From the NCBI GenBank assembly GCA_025677605.1, contig GCA_025677605.1_4110.1: a DNA stretch of 64,000 bases, one strand, 5' to 3'. Positions within the stretch are counted from its first letter, which is position 1. The number at the start of each line of letters is the position of its first letter. Positions 3,617 through 60,854 of this stretch are shown piece after piece. The notes under the pieces are model-generated. The model saw only the letters and a program-made list of their open reading frames with translations, did no database searches and was not told the origin of the DNA. Source of the stretch: a phage. The translations under genes and the position numbers were made by a program.

Positions 3617-3644
3617 ATTATATCACGTTAATCTGTACTGTCAA
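3617..3644 (-). promoter_or_regulatory. consensus sigma70 promoter P-A2: TTGACA-N16-TGaTATAAT
   Basis: Minus strand: -35 TTGACA (3639-3644), 16-nt spacer, -10 TATAAT (3617-3622); shares the 12-mer GTGATATAATGA with P-A1, 93 bp away. Confidence 0.6.
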
Positions 3645-3708
3645 CATCTTTTTCATTTTTATTTTCGAAGCGTTCTACATATGCATCGAAAATAACTGCT
3701 TGAAATCA

Positions 3709-4053: not shown

Positions 4054-4055
4054 AA

Positions 4056-4457: not shown

Positions 4458-4458
4458 A

Positions 4459-5403: not shown

Positions 5404-5422
5404 TTTCAATAAATCCTTTTAG

Positions 5423-6895: not shown

Positions 6896-6907
6896 TGTAT
6901 TATCCCC

Positions 6908-7459: not shown

Positions 7460-7462
7460 CGT

Positions 7463-7993: not shown

Positions 7994-8021
7994 TTAATAA
8001 CTCCATTAATGGTCGTTTAAG

Positions 8022-10135
<2,114 letters not shown>

Positions 10136-11010: not shown

Positions 11011-11694
11011 TTAATCAAAGAAGTTTGTATCAGGTAGTGTAGTACTACTAATGTTGGTTTGTGCACCACTAATAGAAGATGCAGTACTTGGATTACCGAA
11101 ACCAGTAACTTCATCACCGAATGCTTCACCGTTTGGACCCAACTTAGCACAACCATCTGGTTGAACAGTCATAGTAATAACTTGTGCTTCGCTTGAAGAA
11201 TAATCCCAATCACCAAAGTTGCTGGATTCAATAAAGCAACCCTGACAAACCCAAGTACTTAGAGTACCTTCAAAAAGGTTTGTTGCATTTTCGCTATTAG
11301 AACCATCTAGTTCTTGAATCCACATTTCAAATTTAAACTGGGAATCAGTCATACGTGATTCTTGACTATAGTAGTTGAATTCTTTACGCATTTGGTTGTA
11401 AAGTGCTTTTGCTGAAGCATTACCAACTGAATCACGGAAAGCAACTTCAATCGCATCCCAAGTATATTTGCCTTTATAGTGTGCGGAACTGTTATAACTA
11501 TGAACAGTTACGTTTTCATGCGATACAGATACTGCACCAACAGTGTTTGTATCTAGTGTAATCATGTTGCCATCATCATTGGCACCAAAACCAAAGAAAA
11601 TTACACGGAATTTATATTTTGCTTTTGGTTGTTTCATTGAAATACGACCACCACCAGCAAGCGGAACGCCATATCGATCTAGCATAGTAGCCAT
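11011..11694 (-). CDS. tail tube protein (227 aa)
   Basis: Immediately downstream of the sheath gene; size and position typical of a myovirus tube protein; strong RBS AGGAGAA before ATG at 11694. Confidence 0.6.
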   Translation of the reverse strand: MATMLDRYGVPLAGGGRISMKQPKAKYKFRVIFFGFGANDDGNMITLDTNTVGAVSVSHENVTVHSYNSSAHYKGKYTWDAIEVAFRDSVGNASAKALYNQMRKEFNYYSQESRMTDSQFKFEMWIQELDGSNSENATNLFEGTLSTWVCQGCFIESSNFGDWDYSSSEAQVITMTVQPDGCAKLGPNGEAFGDEVTGFGNPSTASSISGAQTNISSTTLPDTNFFD

Positions 11695-11840
11695 TAATTA
11701 ATTCTCCTATTAGGAAATGAGATCTTTATATTATTTATAAAAATTAACATACTTTATGTAGTACTTAATGATATGTTTTATCTATAGGGAACCAATCCAT
11801 ATTAATACAATATGTGTACTGGAATTCACCAGTATATAGC

Positions 11841-12011
11841 TTAAACCTTACACCGAACTGACCATCTGCCATTTGTATAAGCAGAAAAATCACTCACAAT
11901 ACCCACATCTTTTAATACTTCCATTAAGGCTTCTATAAGATTTTGGGCTTCTTCTTGTGATTCTGAATTAAAGGCCAATTCTTGCAGGATACTTTTAATT
12001 ATTTCGTCCAT
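11841..12011 (-). CDS. small hypothetical protein (56 aa)
   Basis: Unlisted ORF (below track size cutoff): ATG at 12011 with GAGAGGGA RBS, in the 395-bp gap between sheath and tube genes. Confidence 0.3.
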   Translation of the reverse strand: MDEIIKSILQELAFNSESQEEAQNLIEALMEVLKDVGIVSDFSAYTNGRWSVRCKV

Positions 12012-12054
12012 ATATCCCTCTCACCTTACTGAATATATGGTATTTAATTTAAAC

Positions 12055-12081
12055 AATAAAAAAGGGAACCATATGGTTCCC
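12055..12081 (-). terminator. rho-independent terminator after the sheath gene
   Basis: Perfect 7-bp stem GGGAACC/GGTTCCC with ATAT loop, 8 nt after the sheath stop, followed by UUUUUU on the minus strand. Confidence 0.6.
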
Positions 12082-12089
12082 TTAGTGTG

Positions 12090-14753: not shown

Positions 14754-14847
14754 ATTAAATCCTCCAAAAATAATTGGTTATTCGAATATATTTCGTATAG
14801 TCTTATTTATTGGTGGATTTAATTGACTTGAGCTAATTGATTTTTTA

Positions 14848-15474
14848 TCAGTTTTTCGTATAAATAATATCCAGTGCTTTGTTTTCTAGGTCTTTTATAG
14901 TTCCATTATTCTTGATAATATAATGTGGGTTGTTAATACCAATCCATGCCCATTCAGATTCATGTACTGATTCCAGTTCAACTGGTTTCATTTGGATATC
15001 ACCTTTATTGTATGATGCTGCTAGACCATACCAGAATGGTAAATTGCGTTGAACTTCAATGATGATACCGTTATTTTCACGAATCATTTTCAATTCATTT
15101 GGAAAACGACAATCAGTAATGATAATGTTACCTTCTATGTCCATCATAGAACGTTCTAAACTGAATACCCAAATGTCATTATGCAAATAACGACGAACTA
15201 CATTAGTACCGTAATTTTGCAGTACCCAACGTGGTGAAACATCATCACGTCCTAATTTATTACACCAGTACTGATCCGGTTGTTCACGAATAGCACGACC
15301 TTCTTTAGTAGTTCCTTCTAGCATTTCCCTGTCCCAGCCAAAAATAGCTGCAACTGAATCTTTCAGGTTCTTTGCAAACGACATACGGGTATATCCATTA
15401 TCGATGAATGTTTTAGCGTATGTATCTTTACCACTTCCTATTGAGCCATTGATGGCTACGATTTTTCTTTCCAT
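14848..15474 (-). CDS. deoxynucleoside monophosphate kinase (T4 gene 1-like)
   Basis: P-loop GSIGSGKDT at the N-terminus and overall resemblance to the T4 dNMP kinase pattern; 208 aa. Confidence 0.65.
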   Translation of the reverse strand: MERKIVAINGSIGSGKDTYAKTFIDNGYTRMSFAKNLKDSVAAIFGWDREMLEGTTKEGRAIREQPDQYWCNKLGRDDVSPRWVLQNYGTNVVRRYLHNDIWVFSLERSMMDIEGNIIITDCRFPNELKMIRENNGIIIEVQRNLPFWYGLAASYNKGDIQMKPVELESVHESEWAWIGINNPHYIIKNNGTIKDLENKALDIIYTKN

Positions 15475-19375: not shown

Positions 19376-20488
19376 TTAAAACATTTGTTGAATTGCTTCA
19401 CAACGTAAAACTGAAACAAAATCACGGATTTCAGATGCTTCTAACTCACCGTCTTTTACCAGTTGTTGAATATCTGGAAGTACTACATCAGTGTAACGAT
19501 CATATACCTTAATGATTAAATCTTCAAGGTCTAAATCAATCTCTTTACGTAGAATAAAATATTCCAGTACTTTGTAAAGGAATTCTTCACCGCCGTTATT
19601 CTTGATATTCATATCCAGTAATAATTGTCCCATTTCATTTGGGGTCTTTTTACGGAATGCCTTGATATCATCACGGAAACGTTTGATGTAATTACTGAAT
19701 TTAACGTACTTAACGGGCATTTTAATAGCACCATTCAGTACTGAATCCTCACCAATTTCTTCTTTCTCAAGAAGCACAGACCATAAGAAATATGGCTTAT
19801 ATGCTTCAGTACAATTATCAGAGATATGATCAATGAGTTCCAATGACTTTTTGGTTAATGTAGCATTAAATGCTTTTTCATAGTAACCAAACTTACTTAG
19901 TGTTTTAAGGAACTTAGCTGGCTTTTCTTCTGACAGTGCTTTTTCAAATTCAACATAAACACGGTCTGGAACAAGGTGATTTAGCTCACCAGACGCTACC
20001 ATATCGATTGCAAGTGCTTCAGTAGTCTCGTGTATAGAGAAATCAGAATAACGCGTAGCAAAGCGAGCTAGACGTAATACACGCAATGGATCTTCTTTGA
20101 AGTGTTCGGATACATGACGTAGTACTTTATTCTTGATATCAGCTTTACCACCGTATGGGTCGATGTGAATTTGCAGTACTGGATCATACGCGATTGCATT
20201 AATTGTAAGATCACGACGATACAAATCTTGTTCCAGTGTTACACCTTTTGTATCCACTTCGAAGCCACCGTATCCAGTACCAGTTTTTCGTTCAGTACGG
20301 GCTAATGCGTGTTCGTTACCTTCTGGGCTTAGATAAACTGGAAAATCTTTACCAACCTGTTTATATCCAATACTTTCTAAGTATTTGATATCAGATTCAG
20401 TTGCACCAACAATGACATAATCTTTGTCCTTTGCACGAATGCCCATTAGACGGTCGCGGCAGTATCCACCAACAAGGTATTTTTTCAT
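19376..20488 (-). CDS. cca: tRNA nucleotidyltransferase (CCA-adding enzyme)
   Basis: N-terminal LVGGYCRDRLMG with DxD-type nucleotidyltransferase motif; about 370 aa; ATG at 20488 with GGGAGAA RBS. Confidence 0.8.
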   Translation of the reverse strand: MKKYLVGGYCRDRLMGIRAKDKDYVIVGATESDIKYLESIGYKQVGKDFPVYLSPEGNEHALARTERKTGTGYGGFEVDTKGVTLEQDLYRRDLTINAIAYDPVLQIHIDPYGGKADIKNKVLRHVSEHFKEDPLRVLRLARFATRYSDFSIHETTEALAIDMVASGELNHLVPDRVYVEFEKALSEEKPAKFLKTLSKFGYYEKAFNATLTKKSLELIDHISDNCTEAYKPYFLWSVLLEKEEIGEDSVLNGAIKMPVKYVKFSNYIKRFRDDIKAFRKKTPNEMGQLLLDMNIKNNGGEEFLYKVLEYFILRKEIDLDLEDLIIKVYDRYTDVVLPDIQQLVKDGELEASEIRDFVSVLRCEAIQQMF

Positions 20489-20624
20489 TCTTATTCTCCC
20501 ATCAACCAATCACGCAGACTTTCCCAGAAGCCTTTTGGCTTGTATTCTGGAACTTGATATTCGTCGGTTCCTTGTTCAGAAACACCCCAATCTTCTTCTA
20601 ACATTGCAATCATAAAGCCTCCAA

Positions 20625-32577: not shown

Positions 32578-33003
32578 TTATCGTTTATCGATCATTGTTT
32601 GTACATGTGCTACGAGATGTACGATTCTGGTATCACCTGATTCATACTTATCTTCGATCTCAACCTTAAATTCATCTTCAAGTTCCATGATCATTTCTAC
32701 CCAGTCCAGTGAATCAAATTTGAATTTTTCTTCAATTTCTAAGGAGGTTAAATGTAAATTCATCAGTACATCTTTCTCTGATACATCACTATAACGACCA
32801 GAAATGAATTTTGCAATTGCTTTTTCAACGTCAGATGGTTCACGTGTACGGTATTCTGGTTCAAGGAACCATTCACCCTTATTGATAGCTTCTAATTCTA
32901 GTTTAATTTCATGCATTACTTTATAACGATCAGTACTTTTATGGATGCGACTAACTTCGCGATTCAGTACACGTAGTGCGTCTTTGATTTGTTCGTTTAG
33001 CAT
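32578..33003 (-). CDS. protein with C-terminal acyl-carrier-protein-like (phosphopantetheine attachment) domain
   Basis: C-terminal FDSLDWVEMIMELEDEFKVEIED matches the ACP DSL motif around the 4'-PP serine; ATG at 33003 with AAGGTGA RBS. Confidence 0.5.
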   Translation of the reverse strand: MLNEQIKDALRVLNREVSRIHKSTDRYKVMHEIKLELEAINKGEWFLEPEYRTREPSDVEKAIAKFISGRYSDVSEKDVLMNLHLTSLEIEEKFKFDSLDWVEMIMELEDEFKVEIEDKYESGDTRIVHLVAHVQTMIDKR

Positions 33004-33015
33004 TTTTTTCACCTT

Positions 33016-33078: not shown

Positions 33079-35862
33079 TTATAATTCACTATAACGATTG
33101 TGTGAGTTCAGTCTGTACATTGAGTACAAACCAAGACCACGCATGATTTCACCAGCCCAAAATCCAAAGAACATCCCATTGTCTGAATCTTCTCGAACTG
33201 CTGGACTCCATGAGCCGTTCATCGGTGAACCTGGTTTTGTTATTACATAGTTATTTTGCAATTCATCAACCAATCTGTCAACCATTTCTGGTAAGCGTTC
33301 AATCTTGCACCCAGCTAAGCCACATGCACTACCACCTGCCAACCACAATCCACACATATGTCCTGTGAAATCCCATGCTGGGCCTTCAACTGTTCCATCT
33401 TTATTAAAGATTGTTGGTGAACGACCTTCATTTTCATCCTGGAATTGAATTAAAAAGTTAATCCAGTTCTCACAGAACTCAACCAATTCAACTGGTGGTT
33501 CTTCACCACGCTCTGCTAATTCTTGCCAGCAACGAGCCGCCCCAAAGAATGCACGTGGTTCATATCCACTCCATGCTTCATCACCCCAGTGTAACATTGT
33601 AAACGTATCAGGTTCACCATATTTGAGGTTGTCCCAGCGGTTCCATACATATGCCTGTGCACAAGGACCAACTGTACCGAATTGGTTTGTAAACCATTCT
33701 TGTGAATCTTTCATAAAATCCAACATATTACCCATTCTTGTATGGTCTACTGGTTCGTCTTTAAAGCAGTAAATTACTGGGTATTGGTATCCAGGATATG
33801 GTAGTCCACGCCACCCACCGTACTGATTTGCATATGGGTCAGTAATATTTGAAAATGGAATAGTACCAGGAGTGTAACGTAACGAATTTAATTCATAATC
33901 TTTAATTACACAATCCCCCAAATACGCCGAATATGCTGCTGTTCCAGAAACAGTAATAGAGAATGTCATTGTATAGTCATCGCCATTTTCGGATGTATAT
34001 AGTGGTGGAATATCATTTATACAATACCATTGGATTTTAGCAGTCCCATTGATTGGTGTTGTATCGGGTAATAGAGTGAAATCTTCCAATTCACTATATA
34101 CTGGGGCTTCTGGGTCAGGATCATCGCTGTGATTTGGCTGATACCCAGAAAGATGTAAATCCTCTGGTTTCAATTCTATTGTGGTCCATTCGCCATGTGT
34201 AGCAGGAATCATCCACCACCAACGCCATCCATTATCATCTTCGATTCTGATATTAAAATCATCATCATATGAACGATATGTAAAAGAATTAATAGGTGCT
34301 TTTTCTGAATCCAGTAGCCAGAATCCAACAACTATACCACCATCTTCACCAGTACTGATATCGCATATAGTATCAACTCTGGAACCAAGAATATCAGTAC
34401 TATATTCCATTTTATATATAGCCCCACCATAATCCACTACTGAACGACTGTCAGCCATAATATAAGAGCTACCATCATCTTTCTTCTCACGGACAAAAAC
34501 ACTTAATGGAGTTTCAGAGTGTTTAATTTCAGTACTGGTACTCAGTGGTAAACCACAACGGTATCTTATAGCATCATTATCACTTTTTGTTTTTGATAAG
34601 TCAAGTACTGGCTTAAATGTTAATGGAGAACCATCATCACATATTCCACCATAATCAACAACCAATTTCGAATCAGAATTTAGTCTGAACCATATTGCTT
34701 GCTGTTCAAGAGTACTTTGTGCACTTTGTTCCTGGCGTATTCTGATATAACCATCAACGTTGCGGGAATATGTAGCAATCGCATCACTTGGATAAAAATA
34801 ATCATATGAAATACCATCAGTAAATGGCGTAGATACTTTAGTACTTTGTCTGAAGAATTTATCAAATGCATCAATGTCACCATATGCATAACAAGTAAGT
34901 AAAGAACATTTCCATCCAAGATAATGTTTTCTTTCCTTTGTTATTTTATATAACAAGTAAGAAGCATCACTGAACCATAATTCAGCATCAGATGCGTTAT
35001 CAGCAAAGTCAAGCGTAATAGGAACATGTAATGGACGGTTGTGTTGCATCTGATTACGTGCGATGTACGTACCACCAAATTCAACAGGTTGTCTATTAGC
35101 GAAGTTTAATTTATAAACACCATTTAATGTTCTGTCTTTTACCTGTACTGTTCCTTTTTCTGACTCATAGTGTCCAGTACTGATAATATCCCCATTATAA
35201 TCTACTTTACGTCCTAAGTAATCAATTACCCAATCAACATCATATTGTTCACCAGGGTTATCCCAGTCAGTACTACCATCTGGTAATATTGCCTGTACTG
35301 ACGCGTTAATCTGATTCCATGCAAGTGCACCTTTGAATGCAAAAGTAACTTTATCAAGGAATTGACCATAATACGGCTCATCATGTGGAATACGACATTG
35401 ACCATCTATGAAATTAAATTCTACGCCTTTGAATCCACCGTGAGTAGGCCAATCATCATCTGACAAAGGCCAGTTAGCAAGTATTGGTTCTTTAGCATTC
35501 ACAATCCAGTTACATTGTAATGGACGTGGTGGATCTGGAAACTGTCTATTAGCATAAAAATATTTGTGATATGCGTCCCAATAATACTTAGCTTTATCCA
35601 AAAACATTTCATCATTAGTTGCAAGATAAGCATAGATATAACCAATGATCAAAAGACTTTGACCCTCAGTTGTCCCGTCACCATTTGGTTGACCTTCCAT
35701 TGCACTGAAATTAATAAAATGACGGTTATTTGCTAATACACCTTGATCGTTTATTACGTAATGCTGTTTTGTTGGATCTACTGTATCACCTGTATTTCTT
35801 TCTAAAAATCTATGATGACCATAAAGTAATTGTATAACGTTATCTATGTTATATTTTGTCAT
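33079..35862 (-). CDS. large virion-associated protein, possible polysaccharide-degrading enzyme (about 927 aa)
   Basis: ORF in track; ATG at 35862 removes a 50-nt overlap with the upstream gene; W/Y/G-rich C-terminal half reminiscent of glycoside hydrolase folds (inference only). Confidence 0.45.
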   Translation of the reverse strand: MTKYNIDNVIQLLYGHHRFLERNTGDTVDPTKQHYVINDQGVLANNRHFINFSAMEGQPNGDGTTEGQSLLIIGYIYAYLATNDEMFLDKAKYYWDAYHKYFYANRQFPDPPRPLQCNWIVNAKEPILANWPLSDDDWPTHGGFKGVEFNFIDGQCRIPHDEPYYGQFLDKVTFAFKGALAWNQINASVQAILPDGSTDWDNPGEQYDVDWVIDYLGRKVDYNGDIISTGHYESEKGTVQVKDRTLNGVYKLNFANRQPVEFGGTYIARNQMQHNRPLHVPITLDFADNASDAELWFSDASYLLYKITKERKHYLGWKCSLLTCYAYGDIDAFDKFFRQSTKVSTPFTDGISYDYFYPSDAIATYSRNVDGYIRIRQEQSAQSTLEQQAIWFRLNSDSKLVVDYGGICDDGSPLTFKPVLDLSKTKSDNDAIRYRCGLPLSTSTEIKHSETPLSVFVREKKDDGSSYIMADSRSVVDYGGAIYKMEYSTDILGSRVDTICDISTGEDGGIVVGFWLLDSEKAPINSFTYRSYDDDFNIRIEDDNGWRWWWMIPATHGEWTTIELKPEDLHLSGYQPNHSDDPDPEAPVYSELEDFTLLPDTTPINGTAKIQWYCINDIPPLYTSENGDDYTMTFSITVSGTAAYSAYLGDCVIKDYELNSLRYTPGTIPFSNITDPYANQYGGWRGLPYPGYQYPVIYCFKDEPVDHTRMGNMLDFMKDSQEWFTNQFGTVGPCAQAYVWNRWDNLKYGEPDTFTMLHWGDEAWSGYEPRAFFGAARCWQELAERGEEPPVELVEFCENWINFLIQFQDENEGRSPTIFNKDGTVEGPAWDFTGHMCGLWLAGGSACGLAGCKIERLPEMVDRLVDELQNNYVITKPGSPMNGSWSPAVREDSDNGMFFGFWAGEIMRGLGLYSMYRLNSHNRYSEL

Positions 35863-35863
35863 T

Positions 35864-36493
35864 TTATACCCCTGCTCGAATAAGAGCACCGTACCATGTA
35901 ATACCACCATCATAGGTTTCTAGGGAAATTATATCTTTTTGGGATTGTTCATATGAAAGAAGAACTTGACGATTGAATGACCATTTCACATTAGAACTCC
36001 AGCTTACAAGATTTGAACCTGTGCCTTGTTCTATGATAACAGTGCAATCATATACTTGAGTTTTAGCATTAGGAAGGATATTAATTGTAGTGTTTGGTTT
36101 GTTTAGAGTTAAATTAAAAACTTTATTACCAGTACTGGTATCTATATCGTAACTATCAGCTTGTGGTAATACTGTCACAGTACTGTTGGAGCTATCATAT
36201 AATGTAACCCATTCAGTACTGTTTGTGTCATTTGTTGTGCGTGCTTGTATTTTAACACCGTTATTAGTCTCTGTCATCCCAGCCCACGCAGCAATCTGTA
36301 ACGATTGGTTGCTATCTGTTCCTAGTGTTGTAATCACTGAATTACTTAAATGATTATCTGCACCAGAAATTTCGTGTGTTCTGATAATATTAAAAGACGA
36401 TGTATCAAATGTTAATATTGGTTTTTTAAATTCAGCTTTCGAGAATTTAACAACACCAGTAACTTCCATTGTGGTGTAAAAGGAAATAGCCAT
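35864..36493 (-). CDS. hypothetical structural protein (209 aa)
   Basis: ORF in track; T/S/N-rich beta-type composition typical of fibre or adhesin proteins. Confidence 0.4.
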   Translation of the reverse strand: MAISFYTTMEVTGVVKFSKAEFKKPILTFDTSSFNIIRTHEISGADNHLSNSVITTLGTDSNQSLQIAAWAGMTETNNGVKIQARTTNDTNSTEWVTLYDSSNSTVTVLPQADSYDIDTSTGNKVFNLTLNKPNTTINILPNAKTQVYDCTVIIEQGTGSNLVSWSSNVKWSFNRQVLLSYEQSQKDIISLETYDGGITWYGALIRAGV

Positions 36494-36577
36494 AATCCAT
36501 CCTTAAATTAGTTATTATTGGGTATTTATTGGTCTAAGTGGATTTTTTAGACCCATTTAGACCAATATTCAATAATA

Positions 36578-37819
36578 CTATTTCTTACCGTACCACTGCA
36601 TTTCTCGAATATCGATTAGAACTTTTGCAGCTAGTTGAATGTTTGGTTTCTTTGGTAGAACTGACTTAGGATACACCACATTGCGGATATAGTCAACCTT
36701 TTCATTGAAATAATCCATGACTTCTTCATACTTCCATTTACCGTTGCGGATATCCATTAGCATATCAGCATCAGGACGTTTAACAAGGATAATACCGCTT
36801 TGTAATGCTTCTTCGGCACTATTTAGCAGCCTGATCGTATGCATAGCATGTTTTAGATCGAAGCCGTGCTGTGATTCCATAAGAGCACGTTTAGCATTAC
36901 GATTCTCTTTCCATTTGTGATAACTTTTACGGTTCTCACTGTTCTCACTGTATTCTTTTTCATTGAATTTGACAATGAGTTCAGGTCGTACTTTCAATTC
37001 TTCAGTACTGCGTTCTTTGTTGAAATAACGTAAAGAACCATCAGCGTTAATTGTACTTTCATTAGGATTGATAATAACACCAAAGATATTTTCACCGTAA
37101 TGAATTAATTCGTACCCATTGTTATAATCCAATAAGTTGAAATCACGGTCTAGTACTTTATCAGTACTGTAATTATGTACTAAACGTACAAAATGATACT
37201 GTTTCAACGGATGAGTTGAAACTAACTGCAATGAAGTATCACGCATGTATTTTTCAAAATCTATTTTCTTAGCATTAAATGGATGTAGTTTAGAAGTATC
37301 TAAACGTTCTACCAAATAGTGTGGGAAGTTTTCATACATCCATGCTAAAGTTTCATCTACTGGAAAATCTTCTAAGATTTCATTTAGACGTTTTTCAGCA
37401 ATACGCTCTTTATCCATCCACCCGTGGTGATTGGACATACGCTTAACCTGATTATATGCATAACCGGTATAAGAGAATGCAATCTTAGAACTAAGTAATT
37501 GTTGATTGAATGTACGTAGATAATCATAGATTTCAGTACTTTCTACGATGTGTTCAGGATCAACCCATAGTGATTCAAGGATATTTGGGTTAGCCTCTGT
37601 GTATAGTCTTAAGTACTGATTTAGTTCATAGAATTTAGTATCTTCTTCTCTTGAATCAGAAACTTCTTTTACATTATAAAAAGGTGTCAGAATGAACTCT
37701 TTGTTAGCAAGAAAAATACCACGATAATCCGTATCACTTTCAGGTGTACTGGTTCCATACGCTTGTGAACCTGCTAAGTGCTTCACAATTGTTTGTTCAA
37801 GAAATTTGTTATTATTCAT
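36578..37819 (-). CDS. polymerase-beta superfamily nucleotidyltransferase (413 aa)
   Basis: N-terminal hG[GS]x9-13Dh[DE]h motif (LAGSQAYGTSTPESDTDYRGIF); ATGA overlap with the upstream gene. Confidence 0.55.
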   Translation of the reverse strand: MNNNKFLEQTIVKHLAGSQAYGTSTPESDTDYRGIFLANKEFILTPFYNVKEVSDSREEDTKFYELNQYLRLYTEANPNILESLWVDPEHIVESTEIYDYLRTFNQQLLSSKIAFSYTGYAYNQVKRMSNHHGWMDKERIAEKRLNEILEDFPVDETLAWMYENFPHYLVERLDTSKLHPFNAKKIDFEKYMRDTSLQLVSTHPLKQYHFVRLVHNYSTDKVLDRDFNLLDYNNGYELIHYGENIFGVIINPNESTINADGSLRYFNKERSTEELKVRPELIVKFNEKEYSENSENRKSYHKWKENRNAKRALMESQHGFDLKHAMHTIRLLNSAEEALQSGIILVKRPDADMLMDIRNGKWKYEEVMDYFNEKVDYIRNVVYPKSVLPKKPNIQLAAKVLIDIREMQWYGKK

Positions 37820-38217
37820 AGATGTAATGTTAGCTCCTTAAGAAACCCATTATAGTACTTCATGAAATCTTTATGAAGAACTTTGTATTCTGATAAACTA
37901 AAACCTAGATTGATTATAGTATCTTCTTGAAAGAACTTTTCTTCTTCGGATAAATCCAGAGAAATAGATTGTTTGCCACCATTTAATATTTTAGTAAAGT
38001 GTAAACCATCATTATTGATTTCAACGTACATGAAGTTATTTTCACGGTCACGAGGGCAAACAATATTAATGGAACTTTCACCAGTATCATCGTATTCGAA
38101 TGATATTACATCATACTCCCCGATTCCATAAAATTGTTTATCACTCTTGTAACCACTATATACTTTTTTATACGAATCCATCTGTCTTATGGTGCTATAC
38201 ACATCATCAAGATCCAT
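37816..38217 (-). CDS. hypothetical protein (133 aa)
   Basis: ORF in track. Confidence 0.4.
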   Translation of the reverse strand: MDLDDVYSTIRQMDSYKKVYSGYKSDKQFYGIGEYDVISFEYDDTGESSINIVCPRDRENNFMYVEINNDGLHFTKILNGGKQSISLDLSEEEKFFQEDTIINLGFSLSEYKVLHKDFMKYYNGFLKELTLHL

Positions 38218-38220
38218 ATA

Positions 38221-38724
38221 TTAACTCCTGTAATATTGTAAGTATTCGTTCTTTGCATCATCCAATTCTTTTTGTTCCTGAATTTTATTGTCGATATCTT
38301 TCACGTTAGTAATACTGTTATATAGTGCGTGAAGTACAAGAAAATCAGATACAGAAGTTGAAAAATCCTTCCACCCAACCGATATTTTAATACGCACACG
38401 TATATCACGTCCGTCCATCCAGAACATGAACCCTCGATTCCCACGTAAATCATTAATCATATACACTTTAAAACAAGAATCTCGTGTGCTGCTTTCTAGT
38501 CTTTCAAAATCTACATGAATACTGAACAAGTTTTTTGAACAGTACTTACAAAATGCATAGATAACAGGATCACATTTTGAAAGAAGATATTTGTTTTGGA
38601 TAATTTCTCTGCGATCTTTGTCTGATTTAATATTAGGTACTAATAAAGTACTTTTGTTTAAAATCAACGCAACTAAGTACTGAATAATATCATTATCTTT
38701 TACTTTATGTTTACCGAAGATCAT
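38221..38724 (-). CDS. hypothetical protein, member 3 of a tandem paralogue trio (167 aa)
   Basis: Shares N-terminal (…SD/TD-x-D/E-R-R/K…LS-K/S-H/C) and C-terminal (L-x-L/F-H-x-L…) blocks with the two adjacent genes. Confidence 0.45.
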   Translation of the reverse strand: MIFGKHKVKDNDIIQYLVALILNKSTLLVPNIKSDKDRREIIQNKYLLSKCDPVIYAFCKYCSKNLFSIHVDFERLESSTRDSCFKVYMINDLRGNRGFMFWMDGRDIRVRIKISVGWKDFSTSVSDFLVLHALYNSITNVKDIDNKIQEQKELDDAKNEYLQYYRS

Positions 38725-39224
38725 TAGTATAATCCTTTTAGTTTATTAAATTCATTAAGTTTATGCTGCTCGTATTCTAACTTCTTGTACTTTGTTTCAA
38801 GCTCACGAAGTGCAACGAGTAAATGAAACAAAAACATTTGTTCATGTTTAGGTAGAATATTCGCATCTCCGTTAATATAAACAAATGTATGTTTTTCATC
38901 ATAATCTTTAGATGAATATGTTACTGCATTAAAATCAACCTTAGTTTCGGTATCAAACAATTTTACACGGTTGATATGATTACCATATATGAATACTGGT
39001 TCATATAACCAACGTTCACCGTATGGTTCTTTAACTAGGTCTGTGATTAGTTTCATTAGAGAATGAGAACTTAACATTTCTTTAATTTTAAGTATAGTTC
39101 TACGATCTTCATCAGTACGGATAATTTCTTTTAAAGAATAGCTTTTCATCAGTACTGGAAGAATTAATGTACACCACTCTACATTTTCTCTTTTGTGATC
39201 ATTATTTTTCTTTTTGAAAAACAT
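38724..39224 (-). CDS. hypothetical protein, member 2 of a tandem paralogue trio (166 aa)
   Basis: SLKEIIRTDEDRRTILKIKEMLSSH and MFLFHLLVALRELE blocks paralogous to neighbours. Confidence 0.45.
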   Translation of the reverse strand: MFFKKKNNDHKRENVEWCTLILPVLMKSYSLKEIIRTDEDRRTILKIKEMLSSHSLMKLITDLVKEPYGERWLYEPVFIYGNHINRVKLFDTETKVDFNAVTYSSKDYDEKHTFVYINGDANILPKHEQMFLFHLLVALRELETKYKKLEYEQHKLNEFNKLKGLY

Positions 39225-39233
39225 AGTAACCTC

Positions 39234-39794
39234 TTAATATAAATCAGTTATTCTCTTTTGGATTTTGAATTTACGCTGTTCTTCTTCAATTTGTGATAAC
39301 TTTTCTTTAATATCTTCAGCACCAATAATCACATGGAACAGGATCATTAACTCATCGTCATCAAGCATATCATAATGAACACCGAAGTTTGAAGAAACAA
39401 CACATGATAAATCTCTTGATTGAATGATAGTTTCTTCGGTTCTGTGTTCAATCCCTGCTGGTGTATAATCGACCTTAAACATGATTGCATTTTTTAAATC
39501 ACGTAGTGTGAATTCTTCATCACCACCCCACAGTTTTTTTTGAACCATAGACCAACGATCACTGAATGGATTTTGGGTGTATTCTGCCAGTAATCCATAT
39601 AGTTTATGCTTACTTAACTTGTACTTAAGTTCGATAAGTGATTTACGTTCATTATCGGTTTTCACAAAATCTTTAAGAGTTACACTTTTGCATAGCAAAC
39701 GAACTACTAGGGTATTCTGAAAGTGCTGCTCTTTTTCTTTTAAACGTTGTAACTGTGCTGGTGACAGCGGTGGTCTAAAACGTGATTGTACCAT
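39234..39794 (-). CDS. hypothetical protein, member 1 of a tandem paralogue trio (186 aa)
   Basis: TLKDFVKTDNERKSLIELKYKLSKH and LMILFHVIIGAEDIKE blocks; strong RBS AGGAGGA; consensus promoter immediately upstream. Confidence 0.45.
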   Translation of the reverse strand: MVQSRFRPPLSPAQLQRLKEKEQHFQNTLVVRLLCKSVTLKDFVKTDNERKSLIELKYKLSKHKLYGLLAEYTQNPFSDRWSMVQKKLWGGDEEFTLRDLKNAIMFKVDYTPAGIEHRTEETIIQSRDLSCVVSSNFGVHYDMLDDDELMILFHVIIGAEDIKEKLSQIEEEQRKFKIQKRITDLY

Positions 39795-39816
39795 AGTTTC
39801 CTCCTAGTTTTTTAGC

Positions 39817-39845
39817 ATTATACGGATAAAAGAAAAGCCTGTCAA
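39817..39845 (-). promoter_or_regulatory. consensus sigma70 promoter TTGACA-N17-TATAAT
   Basis: Minus strand: -35 TTGACA (39840-39845) inside the terminator hairpin, 17-nt spacer, -10 TATAAT (39817-39822), about 20 nt upstream of the ATG at 39794. Confidence 0.55.
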
Positions 39846-39866
39846 TAGACAGGCTTAATTTTTTTA
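39835..39866. terminator. bidirectional rho-independent terminator
   Basis: Perfect 9-bp stem AAGCCTGTC/GACAGGCTT with AATA loop; T-runs on both sides; overlaps the tail-fibre stop codon. Confidence 0.6.
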
Positions 39867-42605
39867 ACTCCAACGAGTACCAGATTGTGATGGTAACCCA
39901 GAACTAGCTGGGATAGCAGAACCACGATTGTAGGTACTTGGGCGGTATAGCAAGAATCTGGACACTTTTTCAGACTCGATTGATGCAATACCATTAGCAT
40001 CAGTTACTATCTTACCAATGTAGGTTGATGTCATAGTTTCTGATAATTGATATAGTGATATCTGATACGAAGCTGTAGATGTACCTCTATCCATAACCGC
40101 ATATATGTAGAATGTTGAATTATCTGGTGTAGTACTTATGGTAGATAAGTCTATCATAGTCGGTGGTATCTTTGCAAACTTTCCACCCAAGAAAACTGGT
40201 ACTTCTTGTGAAAAGTACACGTTGAACCCTTGTGCCACATCCTGTGAAGCAACAACTAAGTACTGTGATATCGTTTCATTACCAGATATTAGTTTATCCA
40301 TATCTGCTTCAGTAGTACCACATACAGCAAAAACTGATTTAGTTTGATAATCGTTTTTGTTCATTTGGTAATATCCAAACCCAATCCCTGGAATTGTACC
40401 TATATCAAATTGTGCGTTTGAAATATAAGTTGTTTCCATATATCGTTGACTTGAAATAATACCATTTTTCACTTTAGCAATCATGTTAGGATAACGAGTC
40501 CAACCTGGGGTATCAATGCCATATAAAATGTTCACACCTAAGTAGTTAAAACCACTAAACTTAGCAACAGTCATACCAGCCCAACGTTTGATCATTTCAT
40601 TTGGTGAAATTTGGAATGTATTCGTGATTGATGTATATCTTGCTGTATCAACACTAATACCACGTAAAATTATAGTACCACTTGTACCCAGTGCACTACA
40701 TGATATTTCGGAAAAAATAATATAACACACGTTGGTAGTACCGTTTAGTGCAGAAGTGACTGCAATAGATTTAGAATATGTAGTATCAGGTACATAATAA
40801 AAAACAGTTTTATGTTCAGTTATTCCAGTCAATCCGGCTTTAGCAACGGCATTATAACCTATACCTGATAATGTAGTTCCTGAAATTTCATATCTATCAC
40901 TGTTAAAGTCCATTGTAACAGGGTCGAATTTTCCATAAGCTGGTTTATCGATACCTTCTATTAAAGAAGATCCATAAGTGCTGACATTTCCATTGGCATC
41001 AACCAATGTTACCATACCTGCATATTTGTAATCAGTACTTAAATAGTGTCTATTACCTGATGGTGCAAAACCATTCATTGTGGTATTTTGTTCCAAGTTT
41101 TTATAACTATAAGTTGGATTCTCACCTATTTCAGTAAAAACTGTACTATCATAACCATAAGAAATTCCATCAGCAGTACCAGAACATGCAACAAGTATCT
41201 TACGTTTATCTACGAAACGAACACCTATTAAGTTTTCACCGACAGGGGAGCCATAAACTGGCATTACTTCTACACGTTTTAAATTACTACCAGTACGTGT
41301 TTTAGCAACCCAACTATCATAAGGTGTACCAGAAACTTTGTATGTTTGTACTGCATAGGTCGGCATGGATGACCATCTTGCTTTGGTAGTGAAAACAAAA
41401 CCATCAGAAGTTTGACAGATTGAACCATAGTTACCAAGTGCACCATCATAAAACCCTGTAAAGTTTTCCATATTGATTGAAAACGGGTTACTCACTGTTA
41501 TACTACCAGTTGATGTATTAGCTGATACTCTGATTGGACCACGTTCAGAACCGTCAAGTGTCATTGTTTTAGTACTGATATCATATGTAAAGCTGATACC
41601 AAGTGCATATACACCAGATGTTTTTGTTGCGGTAAAGACACGAAACCCTGGATATATCGCTACTCTTATTTTTGTACCATCAGGACTGATAACTGCTTGT
41701 GTATTAAATGCGTTATTTTCCCAATAATCTATTCTGGAAACACCATTATCATATGCTATTAGTGCATCACCACCTGAACCCAACACTGAATAACTATCAT
41801 AAACACGAATATTATTAGATGCAGTGTATGTTACATTTCTTATAGTTCTTCCTGAATAACCACTAATCTGTGTTACTGTCGAAACTGAACCAGTATTAAA
41901 TGCAGTTAAAGGTACTGTGTATATGATAAATGCACACCCGCGAACACTACTCAATACACTTGAATCCATACACCATATATAAACTGAATCATTTACGATG
42001 TGTGCATAGATTGGTTTATTTGTTATTGCTGTTTTTGGAATTCTGCAATGTTTGTGTGCTGATTCATTTAATGTTTCATTTGTTAATGTAAGGTAGTATG
42101 ATGCTCTATCAGTTGATTCCCAAAATAGTAATTCATATGCATTTGACCCATAAAATTCATAAATGTAATCAGTGCTTGGTAGCACAGAAGGTCTATACAT
42201 CGTGTTGGTTGTAATTATATTATCTTGAGTTAGTGTTTCTATATCTCTTATATTTTTAATATAAGCATAATAGTAACCATACGAACTTCCATTTGTACCT
42301 GCACGTAAAATTACACCAGTACCATCATTTTCAATGATACAAGGTTGCATTATTTTTGCAAATGAAAAGGAAGAAGCACCTTCAAATGTACCGTTAATAC
42401 TCATCGGTAGGTAATCTTGATCACCTACCCTTGAAACTGGAAGCATATCAAACATCTGATCTACTTCCGCTTTGTCATAATATTGGTAAGTGATTTTACC
42501 AGCAGAATCAGCAGGGAATCCATTAAAGGAACGTAATGCATACTTTCCATTAATTTTCAAATTCCCTAGTATTTCTGCGTTTCCTATAATTCGTCTCGAA
42601 GCCAT
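39864..42605 (-). CDS. tail fibre protein (about 913 aa)
   Basis: N-terminal and C-terminal domains paralogous to the 894-aa fibre; C-terminal approximately 190 aa shared with two other genes and ending in a Trp; ATG at 42605 with AAAGGAA RBS. Confidence 0.6.
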   Translation of the reverse strand: MASRRIIGNAEILGNLKINGKYALRSFNGFPADSAGKITYQYYDKAEVDQMFDMLPVSRVGDQDYLPMSINGTFEGASSFSFAKIMQPCIIENDGTGVILRAGTNGSSYGYYYAYIKNIRDIETLTQDNIITTNTMYRPSVLPSTDYIYEFYGSNAYELLFWESTDRASYYLTLTNETLNESAHKHCRIPKTAITNKPIYAHIVNDSVYIWCMDSSVLSSVRGCAFIIYTVPLTAFNTGSVSTVTQISGYSGRTIRNVTYTASNNIRVYDSYSVLGSGGDALIAYDNGVSRIDYWENNAFNTQAVISPDGTKIRVAIYPGFRVFTATKTSGVYALGISFTYDISTKTMTLDGSERGPIRVSANTSTGSITVSNPFSINMENFTGFYDGALGNYGSICQTSDGFVFTTKARWSSMPTYAVQTYKVSGTPYDSWVAKTRTGSNLKRVEVMPVYGSPVGENLIGVRFVDKRKILVACSGTADGISYGYDSTVFTEIGENPTYSYKNLEQNTTMNGFAPSGNRHYLSTDYKYAGMVTLVDANGNVSTYGSSLIEGIDKPAYGKFDPVTMDFNSDRYEISGTTLSGIGYNAVAKAGLTGITEHKTVFYYVPDTTYSKSIAVTSALNGTTNVCYIIFSEISCSALGTSGTIILRGISVDTARYTSITNTFQISPNEMIKRWAGMTVAKFSGFNYLGVNILYGIDTPGWTRYPNMIAKVKNGIISSQRYMETTYISNAQFDIGTIPGIGFGYYQMNKNDYQTKSVFAVCGTTEADMDKLISGNETISQYLVVASQDVAQGFNVYFSQEVPVFLGGKFAKIPPTMIDLSTISTTPDNSTFYIYAVMDRGTSTASYQISLYQLSETMTSTYIGKIVTDANGIASIESEKVSRFLLYRPSTYNRGSAIPASSGLPSQSGTRWS

Positions 42606-42615
42606 ATATATTCCT

Positions 42616-43206
42616 TTACCATTCTGTCCCACTATTCACATCTGGTGTACCAGAACTGATAGGGATAGCTGAACCAATTTTTGTAGCACTTACTCTGAAG
42701 TCGTCAAATCTTGACACTTTATTTATACTGACCCCTGTAATGCCATCTGGGAAAACTGTCAGTTGTCCTATGTACATATTAACACTACTTTCAGGGCGTT
42801 GAGTTTTAGAAATGAGGTAGTCAGCTACCCCAACATCTAATATAACATATACATAATGTGTTTCAATATTAGTACCAGTAACTCCTGGGTCCGTTATTGT
42901 TTTAGCAGGGAGGGTATAAACCGCTCCCGCCATGAACAATGGTAATTCTTTACTGAAAGTCAATTTGAATCCAGCGGCAGTAATACCTAATGGTTCATTA
43001 CTGTAAAGTGAACCAAATTGTGATAACGGAAAGGAACTGGTAATGTAATTCACATCATCTGTACTCATGAGTGGTACATCAACATTCCCATTAGCATCAG
43101 CTTGATACACATTACCAGAACGATCAGTTATCGTGGTCCCAGTATTTTTTCCTTGTGATTTAACGGAAGCATACGCTTCCACATCAGATCTAAATTTATA
43201 AGCCAT
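42616..43206 (-). CDS. tail fibre C-terminal-domain paralogue (196 aa)
   Basis: Aligns with the last approximately 190 aa of both long fibre proteins (…KVSRFDDFRV…SSGTPDVNSGTEW); GGAG RBS. Confidence 0.5.
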   Translation of the reverse strand: MAYKFRSDVEAYASVKSQGKNTGTTITDRSGNVYQADANGNVDVPLMSTDDVNYITSSFPLSQFGSLYSNEPLGITAAGFKLTFSKELPLFMAGAVYTLPAKTITDPGVTGTNIETHYVYVILDVGVADYLISKTQRPESSVNMYIGQLTVFPDGITGVSINKVSRFDDFRVSATKIGSAIPISSGTPDVNSGTEW

Positions 43207-45901: not shown

Positions 45902-45946
45902 ATATATCCCTTTTATCTAGATATCCATAGTGTATTTATAATAGTA

Positions 45947-46137: not shown

Positions 46138-46603
46138 AATCTACTCCTTTACGAAGAATACGTTGATTATTAGAGCCTCTAAATGGTAATTCTAAATTCT
46201 TTTCTTCAAGAATAAATTTACCATCAACTAATACATCAATGTACTCTAGTATTGCGGAGGCATGATTATTTATTATTTCCTCTAAAGTATAACCACTCCA
46301 GCACCAAATATCTTTATTTGGATATTTTTCTTTTACTACTTTACATAACTCAATAACAGTACTGATATTCTTTGGCATCAATGGATCACCACCTAAAAGG
46401 GATAATCCTTGTACATATGGCTTGTTAAGTTCATTCAGGATGATTTCAACTGTTTCAGTACTGAATACTTCCCCACTGCGATAATCCCATGCTTTTTCGT
46501 TGAAGCATTCTTCACATCCGTGGCTACACCCTGAAACAAAAAGGGAGCATCTAACTCCCTCCCCATTAACTAAATCATCCTTGATTATCGTTTGGTAATT
46601 CAT
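46124..46603 (-). CDS. nrdG: anaerobic ribonucleotide reductase activating protein (radical SAM)
   Basis: Radical-SAM cysteine motif CSHGCEEC near the N-terminus; 159 aa; in the nrdD cluster. Confidence 0.85.
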   Translation of the reverse strand: MNYQTIIKDDLVNGEGVRCSLFVSGCSHGCEECFNEKAWDYRSGEVFSTETVEIILNELNKPYVQGLSLLGGDPLMPKNISTVIELCKVVKEKYPNKDIWCWSGYTLEEIINNHASAILEYIDVLVDGKFILEEKNLELPFRGSNNQRILRKGVDYALS

Positions 46604-46910
46604 CTAATATTGCACTCACTATTTCCACAAGAACATCACCATGACATGATTTTGGCTTACAAAAGCACCCAAGACGCTTCCCAGCCAATTCAAGTAGTTC
46701 TTCGATAGTAACCTCACCATTTTCAATTCTTTGGATAAGATACTCTCTGAACTTCTCAATCGACTCTTCTCGTGTCGGAACTATAAACTCTGCCTTTGTT
46801 TGTTTGTCATTAATGTGGGTAAATGGATTTCCCCATTTGGACCCACGACCAATATACACATCATATGGTTCTTTATATTTGTTAACTACAATTGGTTTTA
46901 AGTCCATCAT
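46575..46910 (-). CDS. conserved hypothetical protein with G-x-W-G-N-P-F and C-x-C-x-P-x-x-C-H-G-D motifs
   Basis: 111 aa; motifs [12 protein letters not shown] and [14 protein letters not shown]; sits between grcA-like and nrdG. Confidence 0.45.
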
Positions 46911-54646: not shown

Positions 54647-54714
54647 GATTTACTTCCTTCTTCGATAATGGTGTGTTCATTATAGCAATGAACACATTTA
54701 ATGTCAATAATAGA

Positions 54715-60788: not shown

Positions 60789-60811
60789 TCCTAAAATACT
60801 TTTGGTATAAT
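60783..60811 (+). promoter_or_regulatory. extended -10 promoter (TTTTAA-N17-TGgTATAAT)
   Basis: TGgTATAAT at 60803-60811, about 40 nt upstream of the ATG at 60855. Confidence 0.4.
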
Positions 60812-60854
60812 ATAAATAATATAACACTACAATACAATTTATAAAGGAAAGTAT

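What the first reader, a model, noticed from the sequence alone, without database searches (positions are those of the whole stretch)
36578..39845. Pol-beta nucleotidyltransferase followed by three tandem paralogous approximately 170-aa proteins under a consensus promoter
CDS 36578-37819 has a clear NTase motif (GSQAYGTSTPESDTDYRGIF) and is translationally coupled to a 133-aa gene. Directly upstream, three paralogues (39234-39794, 38724-39224, 38221-38724) share N- and C-terminal blocks but are diverged in between, a pattern typical of fast-evolving accessory or anti-defence loci. Their perfect TTGACA-N17-TATAAT promoter has its -35 box inside the tail-fibre terminator hairpin, so the terminator and promoter are physically nested.
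Basis: partly seen in the sequence, partly recalled or inferred. Interest (0 to 1): 0.55.

Follow-up and report, generated by a model that had tools for sequence, protein, structure and literature searches.

The report
Jumbo-phage RNA-repair operon with paralogous accessory genes
This is a five-gene operon of a giant E. coli phage that ends in a known type of RNA-end-repair enzyme (RlaP, the relative of phage T4 NrdC.11), preceded by three uncharacterised sister proteins that, in the giant-phage loci examined, always sit just upstream of a long form of that enzyme.

Summary
All five ORFs, the paralogy, the NTase motif, the ATGA overlap and the perfect TTGACA-N17-TATAAT promoter inside a terminator hairpin are present as described.

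The window is an Asteriusvirus (121Q/RaK2-like) jumbo phage, 96.9% identical to phage A4. The NTase is an ordinary RlaP-family (PF10127) RNA 3'-end nucleotidyltransferase, homologous to T4 NrdC.11. It is not a cyclic-nucleotide synthase.

The three paralogues form a small family:
- Only 43 representatives were found among 1.84 billion proteins.
- The predicted fold has no solved relative.
- Homologues were absent from the phAPEC6 virion proteome.
- They do not co-vary with the adjacent tail fibre, so a fibre-chaperone role is unlikely.
- In 13 of 13 IMG/VR loci with the long, insert-bearing RlaP, 2-4 paralogues lie directly upstream. In 7 of these they are interleaved with Thg1. None of 67 short-RlaP loci has them.
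- Phage EJP2 is an exception: it has the coupled gene pair but no paralogues.

The terminator hairpin that holds the -35 box is conserved with compensatory changes in Asteriusvirus genomes, 7t3, EJP2 and two metagenomic relatives.

Best reading: an early counter-defence RNA-repair operon. The accessory role of the paralogues is inferred, not shown. Interest is moderate.

The parts
39835..39856 (-). Intrinsic-terminator hairpin (9-bp stem, 4-nt loop, then TTCTTTT) that ends the upstream late tail-fibre operon
   Evidence: Terminator scan. RNA fold -15.4 kcal/mol, z=-4.4. Covariation across 8 lineages: 4 of 9 pairs compensatory.
39817..39845 (-). Sigma-70 consensus promoter TTGACA-N17-TATAAT. 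The -35 box (39845-39840) lies in the loop and 3' arm of the terminator hairpin; the -10 box is 39822-39817.
   Evidence: 12/12 consensus match. The TTGAC and the -10 box are conserved in register in relatives.
39234..39794 (-). Paralogue P1 (186 aa), orthologue of 121Q gp502. AGGAGG ribosome-binding site upstream.
   Evidence: (phrog_18641).
38724..39224 (-). Paralogue P2 (166 aa), orthologue of 121Q gp503
38221..38724 (-). Paralogue P3 (167 aa), orthologue of 121Q gp504 and RaK2 ORF002. AF2 model: four N-terminal helices, a five-strand beta-meander and a long C-terminal helix.
   Evidence: (phrog_7868).
37816..38217 (-). Acidic 133-aa protein (pI 4.6, phrog_22376), translationally coupled to the NTase by an ATGA overlap
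36578..37819 (-). RlaP-family (PF10127) RNA nucleotidyltransferase, 413 aa, homologue of T4 NrdC.11, with a jumbo-phage-specific insert of about 80 aa (about residues 135-215)
36527..36567 (-). Stable hairpin just after the NTase stop codon, with no U-tract. It may mark the operon's 3' end or stabilise the mRNA. It is followed by AATAAATA, which resembles a T4-type late promoter for the next tail-fibre module.
   Evidence: Fold -24.1 kcal/mol over the 92-nt intergenic stretch, z=-4.1. The stem is retained with different sequence in 121Q and ph0011.

Best explanation
The locus is a self-contained, host-RNA-polymerase-transcribed (probably early) operon of a RaK2/121Q-like jumbo phage, and it serves RNA (most likely tRNA) end repair as a counter-defence.

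Transcription. A consensus sigma-70 promoter, built into the terminator of the upstream late tail-fibre operon, drives five tightly packed genes.

The enzyme. The last gene encodes an RlaP nucleotidyltransferase. [quoted passage not shown] The ligase and kinase are inferred to lie elsewhere in the genome: RaK2 encodes both, but neither was looked for in A4 or in the rest of this phage.

The accessory proteins. The acidic 133-aa protein and the three basic paralogues are non-virion accessory proteins of this module. Each paralogue has a conserved basic N-terminal helical part, a variable beta-sheet middle and a long C-terminal helix. This suggests a common docking end and a variable recognition surface. 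My favoured inference is that they work with the long, insert-bearing RlaP, either selecting or presenting damaged RNA substrates or neutralising the attacking nucleases.

What is shown: gene structure, family membership, promoter and terminator anatomy and their conservation, linkage statistics, lack of virion detection in a relative, and purifying selection.

What is inferred: early timing, RNA-repair activity of this particular enzyme, and any physical or functional link between the paralogues and RlaP.
For: NTase identity:
- PF10127 RlaP, E=2.1e-17, 64.1 bits against a cut-off of 23; phrog_388, E=1.3e-73.
- Homology to T4 NrdC.11 in both the N-terminal (E=3e-13) and C-terminal (E=2e-5) parts. 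PMC12776372 places T4 NrdC.11 in the RlaP family.
- G17, S18, D29, D31 and D60 are invariant across 13 homologues.
- RlaP biochemistry is from PMC12776372. RlaP in jumbo phages was described in PMC7824862.

Operon:
- Overlaps and gaps of 9 nt or less; a single consensus promoter and terminator, conserved with covariation.
- A T4-type late motif TATAAATA precedes the upstream fibre gene at 45933-45940, so the flanks look late and this operon looks sigma-70-driven.

Linkage:
- 13 of 13 IMG/VR loci with a long RlaP (410-432 aa) carry 2-4 paralogues directly upstream on the same strand.
- Seven of these have Thg1 (PF04446) embedded among the paralogues; six have the 133-aa gene instead.
- 0 of 67 short-RlaP loci have paralogues, and 18 of those have a CCA-adding enzyme within about 3.5 kb (upstream in 17).
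- In ph0011 the paralogues, the 133-aa gene and the NTase follow the 121Q type, while the adjacent fibre follows the A4 type. The block is therefore inherited as a unit.

Other support:
- Homologues gp316c and gp318c-321c were not detected in the phAPEC6 virion, although the flanking gp314c, gp315c and gp323c were.
- dN/dS is 0.04-0.18 for 121Q vs ph0011.
- RaK2 encodes polynucleotide kinase, RNA ligase and a CCA-adding enzyme elsewhere. The window itself has a CCA-adding enzyme at 19376-20509.
- The paralogues are basic, pI 7.8-9.4, with N-terminal parts of pI 9.1-10.2.
- The most variable RlaP segment (residues 151-180) lies inside the insert found only in paralogue-associated RlaPs.
Against: - No RNA ligase or kinase is adjacent, and none was identified in the window.
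- All paralogue-bearing loci belong to one phage clade, so the 13/13 linkage could reflect inherited synteny rather than functional coupling.
- Phage EJP2 keeps an intact DUF4326, 133-aa and RlaP gene set with no paralogues, so RlaP does not strictly need them.
- No transcriptome was found, so early timing rests on a consensus match.
- No RlaP from any phage has been assayed.
Confidence: 0.55

Rival explanations
1. The paralogues are independent early host-takeover or anti-defence proteins, for example inhibitors of host immune or metabolic proteins. They would merely share a promoter with RlaP and have no mechanistic connection to RNA repair.
For: - Small, lineage-restricted family with multiple copies and fast between-clade divergence.
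- A strong sigma-70 promoter.
- EJP2 has RlaP without paralogues.
Against: - The position immediately upstream of RlaP is kept across deep divergence (RlaP 49-60% identical, paralogues about 20-30%).
- In seven loci the tRNA-repair enzyme Thg1 sits inside the paralogue array.
- No member was found away from an RlaP operon wherever enough context was available.
- Paralogues co-occur only with the insert-bearing RlaP form.
Confidence: 0.27
2. The paralogues are tail-fibre assembly chaperones or adaptors for the neighbouring fibre genes.
For: - They lie between two tail-fibre modules, directly after a 922-aa fibre-like gene.
- Chaperones are often absent from virions, so the negative proteomics does not exclude this.
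Against: - A terminator and a separate sigma-70 promoter split them from the fibre operon.
- ph0011 shares a 95%-identical fibre with this phage, but its paralogues are only 33-38% identical.
- ph0011 lacks the second fibre module yet keeps three paralogues. RaK2, with many fibres, has only two.
Confidence: 0.05
3. The NTase is a signalling or toxin-type enzyme (a CD-NTase-like cyclic-nucleotide synthase, or a MenT/AbiEii-like tRNA-modifying toxin), and the upstream small proteins are its regulators or antitoxins.
For: The generic pol-beta G-S...DxD motif is shared by these families (sequence). An acidic small protein translationally coupled to an NTase resembles a toxin-antitoxin layout.
Against: - The Pfam assignment is specifically RlaP, well above its cut-off.
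- There is full-length homology to T4 NrdC.11.
- PADLOC and NCBIfam give no hit to CD-NTase, AbiE or MenT models.
- Relatives sit next to CCA-adding enzyme or Thg1, not defence effectors.
Confidence: 0.03

Closest known systems
RlaP family (PF10127): Pseudomonas PfRlaP/PaRlaP and phage T4 NrdC.11
   Same: - Same Pfam family with the same G-S / DxD / third-Asp signature.
- N-terminal NTase part plus a homologous C-terminal part.
- The phage context fits counter-defence RNA repair, as proposed for jumbo phages in PMC7824862.
   Different: - Carries an insert of about 80 aa (about residues 135-215) that is absent from the ~350-aa phage forms and from T4 NrdC.11.
- Is not next to RtcB or another RNA ligase.
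- Is preceded by lineage-specific small proteins that no described RlaP operon has.
- Activity has not been tested.
Phage T4 Pnk-Rnl1 tRNA repair, which counters the PrrC anticodon nuclease
   Same: The proposed logic is the same: a phage-encoded repair of host-cleaved tRNA that restores translation. This is established knowledge for T4. RaK2-like phages encode Pnk and an RNA ligase.
   Different: The enzyme here would restore missing nucleotides rather than heal or seal ends. The ligase and kinase are not part of this operon. No host nuclease target is known for these phages.
RlaP operons of other phages that carry a CCA-adding enzyme or Thg1
   Same: The NTase is co-located with other template-independent or 3'-5' tRNA end-repair polymerases (L012, L014, L024-L031). 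The GAP32-like and related loci have the same paralogue family.
   Different: In the window, neither Thg1 nor the CCA-adding enzyme is in the operon. The CCA-adding enzyme lies about 17 kb away at 19376-20509. The slot next to RlaP is held by the 133-aa acidic protein instead.
Tail-fibre assembly chaperones (T4 gp38/gp57A, Mu/P2 Tfa)
   Same: Small genes located next to fibre genes, whose products are not detected in the virion.
   Different: No sequence or fold similarity, separate promoter, and no co-variation with the fibre.
XRCC4-like head plus coiled-coil stalk

Membership tests
RlaP (PF10127) nucleotidyltransferase | Match to the family HMM above Pfam's gathering score | tested here: met
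   64.1 bits against a cut-off of 23, E=2.1e-17, residues 15-132. 120 listed homologues, nearly all pre-annotated PF10127.
RlaP (PF10127) nucleotidyltransferase | Pol-beta catalytic signature: hG[GS] followed by DxD and a third conserved Asp | tested here: met
   G17, S18, D29, D31 and D60 are invariant in a 13-sequence alignment that includes T4 NrdC.11. PMC12776372 reports three strictly conserved Asp residues in the family.
RlaP (PF10127) nucleotidyltransferase | C-terminal helical domain that forms the RNA-binding cleft with the NTase domain | tested here: inconclusive
   The C-terminal 70 residues align to T4 NrdC.11 (E=2e-5) and conserved blocks run to the C-terminus. No structure was predicted for the NTase, and no RlaP chain was found in the PDB by sequence.
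RlaP (PF10127) nucleotidyltransferase | Gene neighbourhood with RNA ligase or other RNA-repair genes (the origin of the family name) | tested here: not met
   No ligase lies in the operon or in the A4 annotation of the window region. Relatives show a CCA-adding enzyme or Thg1 nearby. RaK2 has Pnk and an RNA ligase elsewhere in its genome. This feature describes context and is not required by the Pfam definition.
RlaP (PF10127) nucleotidyltransferase | Adds 1-2 NMP to RNA 3'-OH ends, Mn2+-preferring | not testable with these tools
   Needs a biochemical assay; known only for the Pseudomonas enzymes.
   No PADLOC hit at E<=0.1. The only Pfam family hit is RlaP.
Tail-fibre assembly chaperones | Sequence or fold similarity to a known chaperone family, and co-variation with the cognate fibre | tested here: not met
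Known anti-defence protein families (Acr and similar) | Significant sequence or structural match to a characterised inhibitor | tested here: not met
Paralogue family (phrog_18641 / phrog_7868) | All three window proteins belong to one homologous family | tested here: met
   Pairwise BLASTP. Reciprocal PHROG cross-hits. A joint HMM scores all members at E<=1e-37 and nothing else in the window.

The most novel reading that the evidence does not exclude
The paralogues are a new family of RlaP-associated specificity subunits. Each would dock through its conserved basic N-terminal helices, possibly on the hypervariable insert unique to jumbo-phage RlaP. Its variable beta-domain would recognise a different damaged tRNA, or dictate which nucleotide is restored. 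That would turn a promiscuous 3'-end NTase into a multi-target, sequence-faithful tRNA repair machine.
Probability: 0.15. Interest if true: 0.7.

Novelty: new variant of a known kind. Interest (0 to 1): 0.4.

Why it matters
RlaP has only just been characterised in bacteria, and its promiscuity is unexplained. It accepts any NTP and adds one or two nucleotides, so it is unclear how it could restore a tRNA faithfully.

Giant phages of the RaK2/121Q group pair a distinct, insert-bearing RlaP with a private family of diversifying small proteins. In half of the lineages they also add Thg1. If these proteins confer substrate or nucleotide specificity, or block the attacking nucleases, they would be a new component of phage counter-defence against tRNA-cleaving immunity. 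They would also offer a handle on RlaP's real substrates.

The conserved terminator-embedded promoter is a compact late/early boundary element. It also coincides with a recombination junction between fibre and repair modules.

Tried and rejected
Searches and models that gave nothing usable:
- Word-indexed homologue searches for the paralogues returned only 2 and 7 proteins.
- The exhaustive HMMER scan found 43 representatives. All were short single-domain proteins, except one spurious 1157-aa repeat protein, P0129.
- Context look-ups for the distant members P0155 and P0133 hit contigs under 1.2 kb.
- The search for related loci with the paralogue alignment failed because no stretch was conserved enough. 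I scanned with the RlaP alignment instead.
- The afdb50 fold library was unavailable.
- Single-sequence AF2 of the 133-aa protein gave pLDDT 49 and was not used for fold search.
- PDB sequence searches with single proteins and with profiles were empty or non-significant for the NTase, the 133-aa family and the paralogues.
- PADLOC and NCBIfam gave nothing.
- There is no Rfam family in 35500-40500 and no tRNA gene anywhere in the window.

Ideas rejected:
- The 133-aa protein as a truncated fourth paralogue: hhalign probability 0.1%.
- Fibre chaperone and CD-NTase or toxin readings, rejected as set out under the rival explanations.
- EJP2's NTase as a pseudogene that lost its partners: its N-terminus is intact and only the annotated start is wrong.

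Correction:
- My first ungapped dN/dS for P3 (0.78) was an artefact of two compensating 3-nt indels. The codon-aligned value is 0.52, based on 14.5 nonsynonymous and 6.5 synonymous changes.
Full report
WHAT THE WINDOW IS

Megablast of 36400-40000 finds Escherichia phage A4 (Asteriusvirus, 355 kb) at 96.9% identity over the full length. About 35 other 121Q/PBECO4-type jumbo phages match only over the NTase and 133-aa genes, at about 80%. Every gene in the region is on the - strand. A4, ph0011, 121Q and phAPEC6 carry the same five-gene block. It is annotated as 'hypothetical' four times plus 'nucleotidyltransferase'.

CHECK OF THE OBSERVATION

- The five ORFs, their lengths and the motif GSQAYGTSTPESDTDYRGIF are as stated.
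- Spacing is operon-like. P1 and P2 are 9 nt apart, P2 and P3 overlap by 1 nt, and P3 and the 133-aa gene are 3 nt apart. The 133-aa gene and the NTase share an ATGA overlap.
- P1 and P2 are clear full-length paralogues (E=4e-15). P3 is more distant: E=8e-6 and 0.006, in the N-terminal part only.
- Reciprocal PHROG hits and a joint HMM unite all three. The HMM finds no further member in the window.
- The promoter is a 12/12 consensus match at 39845-39817, with an AGGAGG ribosome-binding site before P1.
- Sites with up to one mismatch are enriched in the window: 8 against 1.76 expected, and all 8 lie on the coding strand.
- The hairpin at 39856-39835 plus a T-run is a good intrinsic terminator. 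It contains the -35 hexamer.

THE NTASE

- Pfam places it in PF10127 (RlaP, 'RNA repair pathway DNA polymerase beta family') at 64 bits against a cut-off of 23. PHROGs gives phrog_388, nucleotidyltransferase, over the whole length.
- It aligns to T4 NrdC.11 at both ends, including GSxxYGTSTPESDxD. The 2025 RlaP preprint names T4 NrdC.11 as a viral RlaP.
- In a 13-sequence alignment, G17, S18, D29, D31 and D60 are invariant. This fits the three catalytic Asp residues reported for the family.
- The same preprint shows that Pseudomonas RlaP adds one or two NMPs to RNA 3'-OH ends, prefers nicked-tRNA mimics, and can restore aminoacylation of a tRNA that lost a nucleotide.
- Iyer et al. 2021 already listed RlaP as the most prevalent end-restoring NTase of jumbo phages.
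- The NTase is therefore a known kind of enzyme. PADLOC and NCBIfam give nothing, and no CD-NTase-type model matches.
- One new detail: the jumbo-phage form carries an insert of about 80 aa (about residues 135-215) that is missing from the ~350-aa phage RlaPs and from NrdC.11. The most variable stretch of the protein among RaK2-like phages (residues 151-180) lies inside this insert.

THE PARALOGUES

- Orthology is one-to-one with 121Q gp502, gp503 and gp504. RaK2 has two members and 7t3 has three.
- The family is tiny. An exhaustive HMMER scan found 43 representatives among 1.84 billion cluster representatives, essentially all 150-210 aa.
- Conserved positions sit in an N-terminal motif (KS..LK....D..RK.LI..KY.LSK) and at the C-terminal ...LY. 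The middle is variable.
- An AF2 model of P3 (pLDDT 79.7, pTM 0.70) shows four N-terminal helices, a five-strand meander and one 40-residue C-terminal helix.
- The proteins are basic, especially the N-terminal part. The 133-aa protein is acidic, pI 4.4-4.6 in three phages, and is unrelated to the paralogues.

EVOLUTION

Amino-acid identity of the window proteins to their counterparts in 121Q and ph0011:

| Gene | 121Q | ph0011 |
|---|---|---|
| NTase | 87% | 85% |
| 133-aa protein | 60% | 60% |
| P3 | 38% | 38% |
| P2 | 33% | 33% |
| P1 | 35% | 34% |
| Upstream 922-aa fibre | 50% | 95% |

- The fibre and the repair block therefore have different histories, and the junction falls at the conserved terminator/promoter.
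- The paralogues travel with the NTase, not with the fibre.
- Within the 121Q type, dN/dS is 0.07 (NTase), 0.04 (133-aa), 0.08 (P3), 0.18 (P2) and 0.17 (P1). This is purifying selection, somewhat relaxed for P1 and P2.
- Between the window and A4, P3 alone shows a cluster of changes at residues 76-93, with two compensating codon indels. dN/dS is 0.52 on small counts.

LINKAGE TO RNA REPAIR

I scanned IMG/VR with the RlaP alignment (80 loci) and searched them with HMMs.

- All 13 loci with a long RlaP (410-432 aa), 11 of them on contigs of 346-378 kb, have 2-4 paralogues immediately upstream on the same strand.
- Six of the 13 have the 133-aa gene. Seven instead have a Thg1-family 3'-5' tRNA-repair polymerase sitting among the paralogues (PF04446, E about 1e-30).
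- None of the 67 short-RlaP loci has a paralogue. Eighteen have a CCA-adding enzyme within about 3.5 kb (upstream in 17), and in L012 it overlaps the RlaP gene.
- Relatives also place a DUF4326 gene in the operon (7t3, EJP2, L014, L015). Aravind's group predicts this domain to be a rhodanese-phosphatase-type ribose-phosphate phosphatase. Such an enzyme could supply the 3'-OH that RlaP requires; this is my inference.
- RaK2 encodes Pnk, an RNA ligase and a CCA-adding enzyme elsewhere. The window has its own CCA-adding enzyme at 19376-20509.
- The exception is EJP2, which has DUF4326, the 133-aa gene and an intact RlaP but no paralogues.

NOT STRUCTURAL

In the phAPEC6 virion proteome, the flanking gp314c, gp315c and gp323c were detected. 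The NTase (gp316c), the 133-aa homologue (gp318c) and the paralogues (gp319c-321c) were not.

THE PROMOTER/TERMINATOR ELEMENT

- The hairpin and the TTGAC of the -35 box are in register in the window, A4, ph0011, 121Q, phAPEC6, 7t3, EJP2 and two metagenomic relatives, although the stems differ. Examples are AAGCCTGTC/GACAGGCTT, AGGACAGTC/GACTGTCCT and GAGGTTGTC/GACAGCCTC.
- Four of 9 pairs have changes on both sides, 91.7% of cells pair, and neither the shuffles nor the slid controls approach this.
- Klebsiella phage Muenster (Alcyoneusvirus) instead has a separate terminator plus TTGACA-N17-TAAAAT.
- The hairpin acts in RNA coming from upstream, while the hexamer acts in DNA for transcripts that start downstream. 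The nesting is therefore compaction rather than a switch. The conserved 30-nt element is also a plausible recombination hotspot.
- TATAAATA, the T4 late-promoter motif, lies 25-45 nt before three structural-gene starts, including the fibre operon at 45933-45940. This supports a late/early boundary here, by inference.
- After the NTase stop there is a stable hairpin without a U-tract, conserved in shape in 121Q and ph0011. It is followed by AATAAATA before the next fibre gene.

VERDICT

The NTase is an already-described family. The cluster is best read as an early RlaP-centred RNA-repair operon. Its three paralogues are a clade-restricted, non-virion, fast-diverging accessory family of unknown fold. 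Their link to RlaP rests on conserved operon position and on co-occurrence with the insert-bearing enzyme and with Thg1; no direct evidence supports it. Novelty lies in that association and in the conserved nested regulatory element. Interest is moderate.

Noticed in passing
window 19376-20509 (-): A CCA-adding enzyme (PF01743 plus PF12627) lies about 17 kb from the RlaP operon. A4's annotation of the same stretch also lists macro-domain, Nudix, Sir2-like and PhoH-like proteins. The window therefore holds several RNA- and NAD-related conflict genes outside the finding.
   Followed up: partly
window 46575-46910 (-); L006 5706-6014; L007 5688-5999; L014 2816-3115; L015 4846-5154: A DUF4326 gene sits inside the RlaP operon in 7t3, EJP2 and two metagenomic relatives. 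In this phage it lies instead between the anaerobic ribonucleotide reductase genes. The domain is predicted in the literature to be a ribose-phosphate phosphatase, which might heal RNA 3' ends for RlaP.
   Followed up: partly
window 45933-45940, 11732-11739 (-) and 60811-60818 (+): The T4-type late-promoter motif TATAAATA lies 25-45 nt upstream of three structural-gene starts. The motif is not enriched overall (6 found against 9.9 expected). A one-mismatch copy, AATAAATA, precedes the 209-aa fibre gene at about 36520-36527.
   Followed up: partly
window 39800-39870 compared with L002 (ph0011) and L003 (121Q): There is a mosaic junction. ph0011 matches this phage at 88-95% in the three upstream fibre genes, but carries 121Q-type paralogues, 133-aa gene and NTase. 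A recombination breakpoint therefore falls at or near the conserved terminator/promoter element.
   Followed up: partly
window 38440-38500 (P3 residues 76-93): Compared with phage A4, P3 has a local burst of substitutions plus two compensating 3-nt indels. P2 and the 133-aa gene are identical between the two phages. This may be a hypervariable loop or a short recombination patch.
   Followed up: partly
window 36527-36567 (-): A stable hairpin without a U-tract follows the NTase stop codon directly (z=-4.1). Its stem is kept with different sequence in 121Q and ph0011. ph0011 adds a canonical terminator further downstream.
   Followed up: partly
window 32578-33012 (-): A 144-aa protein gives a sub-threshold PP-binding (acyl-carrier) hit, E=0.0012 and 19.4 bits against a cut-off of 20.8. 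It is annotated as an acyl carrier protein in phAPEC6 and as a carrier-domain protein in ph0011, and it lies just downstream of a tail-fibre module.
   Followed up: no
window 33079-35913 and 39864-42632 (-): The mechanical ORF starts overshoot. By comparison with A4's annotation, the 944-aa ORF probably starts at 35862 (MTKYN...), which removes its 50-nt overlap with the 209-aa gene. The 922-aa ORF probably starts at 42605.
   Followed up: partly
L007 (EJP2) 6387-6492: The deposited EJP2 annotation starts its RlaP gene about 35 codons too late and so cuts off the catalytic G-S/DxD motif. The full ORF starts at about 6387 and overlaps the end of the 133-aa homologue.
   Followed up: yes
L008 (T4) 11436-15206; L004 (RaK2) 1851-8239: In both T4 and RaK2-like phages, the RlaP gene lies within a few kb of an HNH homing endonuclease and an rI.-1 ('starvation-inducible') homologue. 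The order relative to the direction of transcription is reversed between the two.
   Followed up: no
window 54679-54707 (-): This is the only other perfect TTGACA-N17-TATAAT in the window. It is also preceded by TAT (TATTGACA) and lies in an intergenic gap on the coding strand, but it is not inside a hairpin.
   Followed up: partly
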